Assembly (NCBI RefSeq): GCF_017348835.2
Contig: NZ_CP071375.1
Direction: 5' to 3' (one strand)
Length of the DNA: 64,000 nucleotides
DNA from: Escherichia coli
GTDB lineage: Bacteria > Pseudomonadota > Gammaproteobacteria > Enterobacterales > Enterobacteriaceae
Shown here: piece after piece, positions 36,001 to 39,000 of the stretch
Layout: every line of letters starts with the position of its first letter
Numbering within the stretch: position 1 is the stretch's first letter
Position numbers: made by a program

Positions 36001-39000
36001 ATCTCTTCATGACAGTTTCCTGATTAACTGACGTGCTGTGTGCCAGGGGATATAAAACAGGTGAATTGATCAGCGAGCAGAGGGTAACTCGCTGCCTGGG
36101 GTAATTCGAAGTGCCACCATTCGCTGGAGATACCGACAAAACCGCCACCAGTCATTATCGCATTCAGCAACAGGCGATTGCGCTGAGCGGCGGGCGGGAC
36201 GGAAGGATGGTAAGCATGGGAACGTTCGTGCATTTCATCGAATCCTGCGCCCATATCGAGGATGTTCCCGTGCTCATCACGAAGCGTCAGGTCGATCGCT
36301 GTGCCACGGCTGTGATTAGAACCGACCGTCACATCAACAACATATTGCGGGTCTGGGCAGGCTTGCCACAACATCGCCTGTGCTTGTTGTGGGCGATACG
36401 CATCGTAAATCACCAGTTGTAAGCCTGACAGCTGGGCGATACTGATACTTTTCGCCAGCGCGGTAATCGCATCCTTGTGTAACAGACAACGCGCTTGCTG
36501 GTAAATAGCTTTACCTGTGATGTTATCAGCGCAGGCGTATTTCAATTCGATCTCCAGATCAGGGAAGATCGCGGCTAAATCAACCAGTTCGGTGGTATCC
36601 GACATAAACGGTTCCTGTATAAGACAAAAATTGCTGCGCTTTCCGCTTATGCAGATCTCATGCCATGCCGGGAGAAGCGCCAGAATGCTGGCTTAAAGTT
36701 ATATTTTTTAACTTTTGATCAACATTTGTGCAGCGTAGTGCAGTTTTGGTGCAAGAGGGGAAGTTAAGGAAGGAATCTCCCGGAATCGTAGCTGAAATCA
36801 CAGTATTTAAGTGACAGTGTCACGTTAAATGAAAACCCGCGAGTGCGGGCGAGAGGAATTTGTCAGATTTTCAGCGGTAACACGCTGCTCATCCAGCCTG
36901 GAATTTCTTCGGCGGGTAGGGGGCGGGAAAAGAAATATCCCTGAATAACGCGACAGTGGATCTTACGTAGCATCTCAAATTGCTCTTTGGTTTCGACGCC
37001 TTCCGCCACGACGGTTAAATTGAGGCTTTGCCCAATGCTGGTAATGGCTTCAAGTAAGGCAAGGATGCGTTTTTCCGTCAGACAACGATCGACAAAACTT
37101 TTGTCAATTTTGATTTCCGTTACCGGAAGACTGACTAAGCGGGATAATCCGGAAAAGCCCGTGCCAAAATCATCTACCGATAAACCCACGCCCATATCAC
37201 GCAGGATCTGAATGCGCTTAAAGATTTCGGTATCGTGTTCCATCATCATGCTTTCCGTGATTTCTACCGTCAGCTGGTGGCCGTCAATACCCCAGGCTTG
37301 CATTGCATCAGACACCTGATTAGGCAGTTGATTACTGCGAAAGTGCAGCGCCGACAAGTTAACGGATAACGCCGGGATATGAATATTCTGGCTACGCCAT
37401 TCTGCTAACTGACGGCAAGCTTCCGCGATGACCCAGCGCCCAATATTTTCGATTTCACCAATCTCTTCTGCGAGAGGAATAAACCGTGAAGGGGGCACAT
37501 GACCATGCTGGGGATCGTGCCAGCGAGCAAGGGCTTCGATGCCGTACAGTTCACCCGTTTCTGCGAAGATTTGCGGCTGGTAAACCAGTTTCAGTTGGTT
37601 ATTGCTAATCGCTTCTTTCAGCGCTGCGCCTAAAACCAAACGCTCTTTTACCATTTCGTTCATCGCCGGGCTGAAGAACTGCCAGCCGTTACCGCCATTC
37701 TTGCGAATATAATCCATTGCATTGTGAGCAGTGGAGAGCAGGTAATCGCGGTTTTTACCCACGTCGTAGCTGATGCCAATACTCAAGGTAAGCGGGAAGG
37801 GTTTATCGTCAATCATTATCGGCTTGCTGACCACATTCCGTAGCTCATCGGCGATTTGGGTAATGTTACTGACGTCGTTTTCCAGGCTCACGAGGACAAA
37901 CTGCGTACCTTCGATACGACAGAGATACTGATCCGGTTTGAGTTTTTCACGAAAGCGATTGACCACTTCCAGCAATGCCTGATCGGCCCACGCATAGCCA
38001 AGGCTATCAATCACATCCTGAATATGGTCAACACCGATGAGATACACCACCGGAGAGACGGCTTTGTCGACCAGGTCATCGAGGTAATTGTGCAGGTTAT
38101 TGCGATTTGGCAGACCGGTCATCGGATCAAATTGGATGAGTTGTTCAATATGCTGACGGCTTTTTTCCTGTTCCAGCGCCAGCGCGGCCATATGCTGGCT
38201 GATATCTGCCACGCGTTCGATAAAGGCGCTGGTTTCTGCTCCTGACGAGGTTTTAATTTGCAGGATCCCCGCAGGCGCGCCATCACGCTGACGAATGGTC
38301 GCTGACCAGCTTTGCGCATTTTGAACTTCTGCACCGTGCGAAGATGACGCCCAGTGTATCGGCATCCCGTTGCGCAGTGCGAACAGCGAAACATGCGATT
38401 CGTTGAGAACAGATTCGATATTACGACAAATGATTTCCCCCATTTCATGAAATGGCGGGCTGCTGCACATGGCGGCGAGAATATTGCCTTCAAGCTGGCG
38501 GATCTGCCGTTCTTCGGTGATATCCGAGAAAGTCATTACCAGGTTCTGCAGATGCGCGAGCACGTCATAAACCGGGCTGATAGAGGCTTTAATCCAGATT
38601 TTTTCACCGGTGCGCGTCAACAGCAGAAATTCGTCCTGATCGCGGGCGGTTTTCCATAGCAACTGTTGTAAACGAATGCGGTTATCGGCAGGGAATTCAG
38701 GAATGTTCAGGAGTGTATCGGGCTGCATACCGCTGGCTTCGCTAATGCAGTAACCAAACATTTCGGTAAATGCGCGATTGCACTGCACAATATGGCGTTC
38801 CGGATCGAGGACAATCACCGGTCGGTCGAGATGGTCAACGGCAATAATCAATTGTCTGGTCTGTTCTTTTTGCGCCATTTCTACGCTGGCATCCCGTACC
38901 AGCGCCAGGTAATAAACTTTCCCCTCGGCGCTCACTTTCGATAGCGCAAAACGGGTCCAGATTTTACTGCCGTCTTTTTTCTCCAGCTGCAGCTCCCGAC

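What the first reader, a model, noticed from the sequence alone, without database searches (positions are those of the whole stretch)
36811..36823. Palindrome GTGACAGTGTCAC upstream of the ddp operon
A 13-bp perfect palindrome lies about 210 bp upstream of the ddpX start in the ddpX-dosP intergenic region, where starvation-responsive control of ddp would be exerted. It is a possible regulator binding site.
Basis: seen in the sequence. Interest (0 to 1): 0.15.

Follow-up and report, generated by a model that had tools for sequence, protein, structure and literature searches.

The report
A known matS (MatP-binding) site

Summary
GTGACAGTGTCAC is at window 36811-36823 as reported. It is a palindrome with 6-bp arms and a centre base. 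As a bare palindrome it is unremarkable: the window holds 22 of this type, against 16-18 expected.

The sequence is an exact match to the matS consensus GTGACRNYGTCAC, the MatP binding site of the E. coli Ter macrodomain. The identical 13-mer is the matS used in published MatP gel-shift assays.

A second exact consensus site lies 35.4 kb away inside narW (1414-1426). That makes two sites where 0.01 is expected. In K-12 the site is at 1,563,282, 27.5 kb from dif. A 200-kb stretch around dif holds 8 exact consensus sites, 6 of them inside genes. A 200-kb control around oriC holds none.

The 13-mer, within a 17-nt block, is invariant in 10 diverse Escherichia sequences, while 24 of the 76 surrounding non-coding columns vary. 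It survives in B2 strains that have deleted the ddp operon.

The ddp control elements lie closer to ddpX: the ChIP-verified sigma-54 promoter at 36650-36665 and a conserved TGCAC-rich block. The palindrome does not match an NtrC consensus.

The regulatory reading is only right in that the palindrome is a protein-binding site. The element is already known and of low interest.

The parts
36811..36823 (.). matS site (MatP binding site), GTGACAGTGTCAC; the finding itself
   Evidence: Exact match to GTGACRNYGTCAC. Identical to the matS used in MatP EMSA (PMC7394560). Invariant in 10 Escherichia sequences. K-12 equivalent at 1,563,282, 27.5 kb from dif.
1414..1426 (.). Second matS site, GTGACACTGTCAC, inside the narW coding sequence (same duplex core, opposite orientation of the centre base)
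   Evidence: K-12 equivalent at 1,536,807. Invariant in 4 narW alleles, including one about 10% divergent over the 99 aligned bases around the site. Same core as published matS19 (PMC6538776).
36835..36850 (-). Context, not part of matS: intrinsic terminator hairpin of dosCP (GCCCGCACTCGCGGGT followed by TTTCATTTAA); the matS core starts about 12 nt after the stem
   Evidence: Terminator scan; RNA fold.
36650..36665 (-). Context: sigma-54 -24/-12 promoter of ddpXABCDF (TGGCATGAGATCTGCA)
   Evidence: Same sequence as sigma-54 ChIP-seq site OS16, ATGGCATGAGATCTGCA, 34 bp upstream of ddpX (PMC4591121).
36725..36757 (-). Context: conserved TGCAC-rich block (TCTTGCACCAAAACTGCACTACGCTGCACAAA), a putative NtrC enhancer. 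The assignment is inferred; it does not match the canonical 17-mer at up to 3 mismatches
   Evidence: Conserved in cryptic-clade sequences and tandemly amplified x3 or x4 in some strains. NtrC binds ddpX probes and activates the operon (PMC8743547). No canonical match.

Best explanation
The palindrome is a matS site, one of the roughly 23-28 copies of the 13-bp motif GTGACRNYGTCAC scattered through the E. coli Ter macrodomain. From published work, not tested here: a MatP dimer, or tetramer, binds the two GTGAC half-sites. Arrays of MatP-matS complexes exclude or unload the MukBEF condensin from the terminus region. They also tether Ter to the division septum through ZapB and delay segregation of sister termini until division. 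This copy happens to lie in the dosP-ddpX spacer, 12 nt past the dosCP terminator and about 30 kb from dif, where matS density is highest. Its position relative to ddp is incidental. Shown here: the sequence identity, the Ter location, the Ter-specific clustering and the selective conservation. Inferred: MatP occupancy at this particular copy in vivo.
For: 1. The site is an exact consensus match. There are two such sites in 64 kb, where 0.01 is expected. They are 35.4 kb apart, and the published mean spacing is about 35 kb (PMC6907758).
2. The exact 13-mer GTGACAGTGTCAC is the matS site used for MatP gel shifts (PMC7394560). Published matS19 has the same core (PMC6538776).
3. The K-12 counterpart is at 1,563,282. 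dif is at 1,590,750 in NC_000913.3. In the near-identical strain PE164, dif lies about 30.8 kb from the site.
4. K-12 1.47-1.67 Mb holds 8 exact consensus sites and 1 one-mismatch site. A 200-kb oriC control (3.85-4.05 Mb) holds none of either. The uniform-composition expectation is about 0.05 per 200 kb.
5. The 13-mer is invariant, inside a 17-nt invariant run, among 10 sequences. These include two divergent Escherichia lineages (L004, L006) and ddp-deleted B2 strains. In the same alignment 24 of 76 flanking non-coding columns vary (P = 0.004; longest-run P = 0.013).
6. The narW copy is likewise invariant between substitution-rich flanks.
7. matP is present in 5425 of 5426 complete E. coli genomes.
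Against: No held paper gave a table of matS coordinates. I therefore could not read off that this position (1,563,282 in U00096.3; about 1,561,306 in U00096.2, a conversion I inferred from the sigma-54 site coordinates) is a numbered matS with a ChIP peak. Two of the 23 originally defined sites were reported unbound in vivo (matS5 and matS21; PMC3695519). By position this copy is probably neither, but that is inference. E. whittamii, strain E69, E. albertii and Citrobacter amalonaticus lack the site at the orthologous position. Individual matS copies therefore turn over between species. The conservation sample is small (10 sequences) and the sequences are phylogenetically related.
Confidence: 0.93

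Rival explanations
1. It is an operator or enhancer site for a transcription factor that controls ddpXABCDF (NtrC, Nac, an RpoS-linked regulator or an unknown dimeric HTH protein).
For: It is intergenic and upstream of ddpX, and palindromic like many operators. It is conserved wherever ddp adjoins dosP. E. whittamii and E69, which lack ddp at this position, also lack the palindrome.
Against: It does not match the NtrC consensus at up to 3 mismatches. It lies about 145 bp upstream of the ChIP-verified sigma-54 promoter element and beyond the conserved TGCAC block. It is retained intact in B2 strains that deleted ddp and its promoter. An identical site lies inside narW, and 6 of 8 K-12 consensus sites near dif are intragenic. 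The sequence is fully explained as matS.
Confidence: 0.03
2. It acts at the RNA level, as a second hairpin just after the dosCP terminator. It would serve as a back-up terminator or as a 3'-end protective stem for read-through transcripts.
For: The minus-strand RNA is predicted to form a second stem-loop (AUUUAA.GUGAC-ACU-GUCACUUAAAU) right after the terminator hairpin. For the 86-nt segment, MFE is -19.6 kcal/mol and the z-score is -2.18.
Against: It lies downstream of the terminator U-tract, so most transcripts should end before it. It has no U-run of its own (tail UUAAAUAC) and was not called by the terminator scan. The A/U extension of the stem is not conserved in L004. An RNA role does not explain the identical site in narW or the Ter-restricted distribution. 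Much of the z-score comes from the genuine terminator hairpin.
Confidence: 0.03
3. It is a chance palindrome with no function, conserved only because E. coli strains are closely related.
For: 6+1+6 palindromes occur at the chance rate in the window: 22 observed against 16-18 expected. Given 22 such palindromes, my own birthday-type estimate puts the chance that two share the same arms at about 5%. Most E. coli spacers are at least 99% identical.
Against: There are two exact matS consensus hits where 0.01 is expected. The K-12 counts are 8 against 0 between Ter and Ori samples. No variable columns fall in the 13-mer while 32% of flanking columns vary. MatP binding to this exact sequence is published.
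Confidence: 0.01

Closest known systems
matS sites of the E. coli Ter macrodomain (MatP/matS system; Mercier et al. 2008, as summarised in PMC6907758, PMC10945525 and PMC7394560)
   Same: Exact 13-bp consensus GTGACRNYGTCAC. Located about 30 kb from dif inside Ter. About 35 kb from the next copy. The identical 13-mer is used as matS in MatP EMSA. The host species encodes MatP.
   Different: Nothing found. The only gap is that I could not retrieve the published coordinate list or ChIP track to give this copy its matS number.
NtrC (GlnG) enhancer sites upstream of sigma-54 promoters
   Same: Palindromic, upstream of a sigma-54/NtrC-dependent operon (ddpXABCDF; PMC8743547, PMC4066584, PMC4591121).
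   Different: No sequence resemblance: TGCACC-N4-TGGTGCA gives no hit at up to 3 mismatches. It lies further upstream than the conserved TGCAC-rich block. It persists where the promoter has been deleted.
Rho-independent terminator hairpins / tandem terminators
   Same: An inverted repeat immediately downstream of a gene's 3' end, able to form a stem-loop in RNA.
   Different: The core stem is only 5 bp with a 3-nt loop. There is no U-tract. It lies after a complete canonical terminator.

Membership tests
matS (MatP binding site) | 13-bp palindromic consensus GTGACRNYGTCAC | tested here: met
   Zero-mismatch match at 36811-36823, and a second at 1414-1426. Expected 0.01 per window. Consensus as given in PMC6907758.
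matS (MatP binding site) | Location inside the Ter macrodomain, around dif | tested here: met
   The K-12 orthologous site is at 1,563,282 and dif at 1,590,750. In PE164, which is 99.991% identical to the window, dif is about 30.8 kb from the site.
matS (MatP binding site) | Motif clustered in Ter (about 3 per 100 kb, denser near dif) and essentially absent elsewhere | tested here: met
   8 exact and 1 one-mismatch site in K-12 1.47-1.67 Mb. None of either in 3.85-4.05 Mb around oriC. Only 400 kb were sampled, not the whole genome.
matS (MatP binding site) | Host encodes MatP | tested here: met
   The K-12 matP gene is found at 90% identity or more, and at least 80% coverage, in 5425 of 5426 complete E. 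coli genomes. The window itself does not include matP.
matS (MatP binding site) | Specific binding by MatP in vitro | not testable with these tools
   Literature only. The identical 13-mer GTGACAGTGTCAC is the matS in the EMSA probes of PMC7394560. matS19 has the same core (PMC6538776). Native flanks were not tested.
matS (MatP binding site) | MatP occupancy at this locus in vivo (ChIP) | not testable with these tools
   ChIP-seq exists (PMC4738335, PMC10945525), but no coordinate table is held as text. 21 of the 23 original sites were reported bound (PMC3695519).
matS (MatP binding site) | Sequence constraint stronger than on neighbouring non-coding DNA | tested here: met
   0 of 13 columns variable against 24 of 76 in the shared non-coding segment (P = 0.004). 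The narW copy is invariant between variable flanks.
NtrC enhancer site | Resemblance to TGCACC-N4-TGGTGCA (consensus recalled from memory) | tested here: not met
   No hit overlapping 36811-36823 at up to 3 mismatches.
NtrC enhancer site | Functional linkage to the sigma-54 promoter it serves | tested here: not met
   The palindrome is retained in B2 strains whose ddp promoter and operon are deleted. The NtrC ChIP peak (U00096.2 1561101-1561181) maps to the promoter-proximal part of the spacer, about 170 bp away by my coordinate conversion.
Intrinsic terminator | G+C-rich stem-loop followed by a U-tract | tested here: not met
   The scan calls only the hairpin at 36835-36853, not the palindrome. 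The tail after the palindrome is UUAAAUAC.

The most novel reading that the evidence does not exclude
MatP bound at this matS sits 12 nt past the dosCP terminator and about 55 bp upstream of the ddp enhancer-like block. It could act locally as a roadblock or insulator, or could alter NtrC-sigma-54 looping. That would couple ddp or dosCP expression to MatP occupancy or to the cell cycle, a transcriptional side-function not described for matS.
Probability: 0.04. Interest if true: 0.45.

Novelty: already known. Interest (0 to 1): 0.07.

Why it matters
It matters little as a discovery. matS sites and their role in Ter organisation, MukBEF exclusion and septum anchoring are well established. This copy is an exact consensus site in the densest part of the array, near dif.

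The check is still useful for annotation. It removes a false lead for ddp regulation. It places this window within about 30 kb of dif. It also shows that a conserved intergenic palindrome need not be a transcriptional operator. The retention of the site in strains that deleted ddp is a small illustration of selection on chromosome-organisation motifs, independent of neighbouring genes.

Tried and rejected
1. Palindrome statistics. The 6+1+6 class is at chance level, so palindromy alone was rejected as evidence.

2. Sigma-70 promoter. The scan of 36500-37000 found no promoter-like site. My by-eye candidates for sigma-S, PhoB, CRP and IHF sites around the palindrome were all poor and were dropped.

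3. NtrC consensus search. No hit at the palindrome. There was also none at the TGCAC-rich block, so that block is labelled only as a putative enhancer.

4. Insertion boundary. I considered whether the palindrome marks the boundary of a ddp insertion. B2 strains keep a ddpF remnant, so they are deletion derivatives and the deletion endpoint, 27 bp away, is incidental. E. whittamii has a diverged non-palindromic sequence at the equivalent place.

5. Published matS coordinate table. Mercier 2008 is not held. The supplements of PMC10945525, PMC4738335 and PMC3695519 hold no list as text. Searches pairing matS with gene names returned only noise.

6. RNA hairpin reading. It folds, but it lies after the terminator and lacks a U-tract, so it is kept only as a minor rival.

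7. The cross-genus scan with DosP gave only 7 loci. There are no orthologous spacers outside Escherichia, so deep conservation could not be assessed.

Full report
**Observation.**
The sequence GTGACAGTGTCAC is at window 36811-36823. It is a palindrome with 6-bp arms, GTGACA and TGTCAC, around a single central G. The window is 99.991% identical over its whole length to E. coli strain PE164. By that strain's annotation the palindrome lies in the 257-bp spacer between dosP (36863-39262) and ddpX (36024-36605). Both genes are on the minus strand, and the palindrome is 206 bp upstream of the ddpX ATG.

As a bare palindrome it is not special. The window contains 22 palindromes of the 6+1+6 type. The expectation is 15.6 for uniform composition and 17.7 +/- 4.0 in Markov simulations.

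**Anatomy of the spacer, read on the minus strand from dosP to ddpX.**
- The dosP stop codon is followed by a canonical intrinsic terminator. The hairpin is at 36835-36850 and its tail is TTTCATTTAA.
- The palindrome starts about 12 nt after the stem.
- About 55 bp further on lies a conserved TGCAC-rich block, roughly 36725-36757.
- An A/T-rich stretch follows.
- The sigma-54 promoter TGGCATGAGATCTGCA is at 36650-36665.

That promoter is exactly the sigma-54 ChIP-seq site reported 34 bp upstream of ddpX (PMC4591121). ddpXABCDF is an established NtrC/sigma-54 target (PMC8743547). The NtrC ChIP peak maps to the promoter-proximal part of the spacer (PMC4066584). The palindrome is thus the element farthest from ddpX and nearest to the end of dosP.

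**A second copy, and what it pointed to.**
The same 13-mer occurs once more in the window, at 1414-1426, inside the narW coding sequence and 35.4 kb away. Both copies fit GTGACRNYGTCAC. This is the consensus of matS, the binding site of the macrodomain Ter protein MatP. [quoted passage not shown] A later ChIP-seq study revised this to 28 sites in a 1.03-Mb domain, with density doubling near dif (PMC10945525).

Exact consensus matches in the window number 2, against 0.01 expected from shuffles. The identical sequence GTGACAGTGTCAC is the matS site used to make MatP gel-shift probes (PMC7394560). Published matS19 (AAAGTGACACTGTCACCTT) has the same core duplex (PMC6538776).

**Tests of matS membership done here.**
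- *Location.* In K-12 MG1655 (NC_000913.3) the orthologous site is at 1,563,282 and dif is at 1,590,750, 27.5 kb away. In PE164, dif lies about 3.6 kb beyond the end of the window, about 30.8 kb from the site.
- *Distribution.* I fetched 200 kb of K-12 around dif (1.47-1.67 Mb) and 200 kb around oriC (3.85-4.05 Mb). The Ter sample holds 8 exact consensus sites and 1 one-mismatch site. The oriC sample holds none of either. The uniform-composition expectation is about 0.05 per 200 kb. By comparison with the gene tables, six of the eight exact sites lie inside ORFs (ydcK, ydcO, ydcV, narW, lsrR, ydfI). Their placement is therefore unrelated to promoters.
- *Host factor.* matP is present in 5425 of 5426 complete E. 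coli genomes.

**Conservation.**
The spacer matches in 5391 of 5426 E. coli genomes. I aligned ten diverse versions:
- the window and K-12;
- phylogroup F strain IAI39;
- a seawater isolate (B20127);
- two strains with an amplified enhancer block (NDM1, 98208);
- two B2 strains (O18, ERP001);
- two divergent Escherichia lineages, Escherichia sp. E1V33 and strain SCPM-O-B-8794.

In the 76 non-coding columns shared by all ten, 24 vary. None of these lies in the 13-mer, which sits in a 17-nt invariant run, AACGTGACACTGTCACT. The hypergeometric P for the 13 specified columns is 0.004. The P for a run of at least 17 is 0.013. The adjoining terminator U-tract has at least seven variants among the same ten sequences.

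The narW copy is likewise invariant in four alleles, one of which is about 10% divergent over the 99 aligned bases around the site. The sample is small and the sequences are related, so this is supporting evidence rather than decisive evidence.

**Independence from ddp.**
About 1,190 of the 5,395 genomes with a match align to the query only from window position 36784 onward. In B2 strain O18, osmC is followed directly by dosP. The 190-bp spacer there still contains a 53-bp remnant of ddpF. These strains have therefore lost ddp, its sigma-54 promoter and the TGCAC block by a deletion that ends 27 bp short of the palindrome. The palindrome and the dosP terminator are intact.

Conversely, some sequences lack the palindrome at the orthologous position: E. 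whittamii, strain E69, E. albertii and Citrobacter amalonaticus. Individual matS copies therefore come and go between species, as expected for a dispersed motif.

**Rivals.**
- *A ddp regulator site.* The palindrome does not match an NtrC consensus at up to 3 mismatches. No sigma-70-like promoter is called in the region. The arguments above on position, on the ddp deletion and on intragenic copies all count against it.
- *An RNA hairpin after the terminator.* The minus-strand RNA can fold into a second stem-loop. However, it lies beyond the terminator U-tract and lacks a U-run. Its A/U extension is not conserved. It also cannot explain the narW copy or the Ter-restricted distribution.
- *Pure chance.* This is excluded by the consensus enrichment, the conservation and the published binding.

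**Mechanism.**
This part comes from established knowledge of the MatP/matS system, not from tests here. MatP binds each matS as a dimer, and as a tetramer by some accounts. The array of MatP-matS complexes keeps MukBEF out of Ter by unloading it. It also links Ter to the divisome through ZapB and prolongs the pairing of sister termini until division (PMC10945525, PMC7394560, PMC4738335, PMC6907758). This copy would contribute as one unit of that array in the dif-proximal zone of highest density.

**What remains unshown.**
I could not retrieve a coordinate list or ChIP track, so MatP occupancy at this exact copy is inferred. 21 of the 23 original sites were reported bound in vivo (PMC3695519). 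Whether bound MatP has any local effect on dosCP termination or ddp activation is untested. I rate that as unlikely, at about 4%.

**Verdict.**
The element is a known matS site, so novelty is 'already known' and interest is low.

Noticed in passing
window 1414-1426: A second exact matS consensus site (GTGACACTGTCAC) lies inside the narW coding sequence, 35.4 kb from the finding. It is invariant in four narW alleles despite nearby substitutions.
   Followed up: yes
L012:285-640 and L013:285-670 (strains NDM1 and 98208); window equivalent about 36725-36757: The 32-bp TGCAC-rich block upstream of the ddp sigma-54 promoter (TCTTGCACCAAAACTGCACTACGCTGCACAAA) is tandemly amplified to 3 and 4 copies in some clinical and soil isolates. 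It is a possible copy-number polymorphism of the NtrC enhancer that might change ddp induction.
   Followed up: partly
window about 31123 to 36784; L002:3890-4080, L016: About a fifth of complete E. coli genomes align only from 36784 onward. The B2 examples examined (O18, ERP001) lack ddpXABCDF through a deletion running from inside ddpF to 27 bp from the matS site, leaving a 53-bp ddpF remnant between osmC and dosP.
   Followed up: partly
window 23859-30604: A 6.8-kb island absent from K-12 lies between osmC and ddpF. It encodes 3-hydroxybutyrate dehydrogenase, a GntP-family permease, 3-hydroxyacyl-CoA dehydrogenase, thiolase, CoA transferase A and B, and a divergent LysR regulator. It looks like a ketone-body or short-chain acid utilisation cluster.
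   Followed up: no
window 34460-36010; 44187-45589; 11736-12835: In the near-identical strain PE164, ddpA carries an internal stop, gadB is frameshifted and an ompC-like porin gene is frameshifted. The ORF list of the window confirms the split ddpA. The ddp transporter is therefore probably non-functional in this strain.
   Followed up: partly
window 36826-36834: The U-tract of the dosCP terminator is unusually polymorphic, with at least 7 variants in 10 sequences. Some variants would weaken termination (for example CTTCACATA in L004). The stem and the adjacent matS are conserved.
   Followed up: no
L003 (strain MS14384): dosC and dosP are replaced by an IS5 element. The gene at the ddpX position is annotated as a 297-aa M15 metallopeptidase, against 193 aa normally, and is too divergent for megablast beyond 39 bp.
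   Followed up: no
L009 (E. albertii) and L010 (contig labelled Terrisporobacter petrolearius): The E. albertii match to DosP covers only residues 461-807, and the gene runs almost directly into osmC-like sequence with no spacer. A 519-bp contig labelled as a Gram-positive anaerobe is 95% identical to E. coli DosP, which is probably assembly contamination.
   Followed up: no
just beyond the window end (PE164 record 2,572,431; window-equivalent about 67,590): The chromosome dimer resolution site dif lies about 3.6 kb past the end of the window. The window is therefore the immediate dif-proximal flank of the terminus. Further matS consensus sites follow in lsrR and in the marA-marB spacer.
   Followed up: yes
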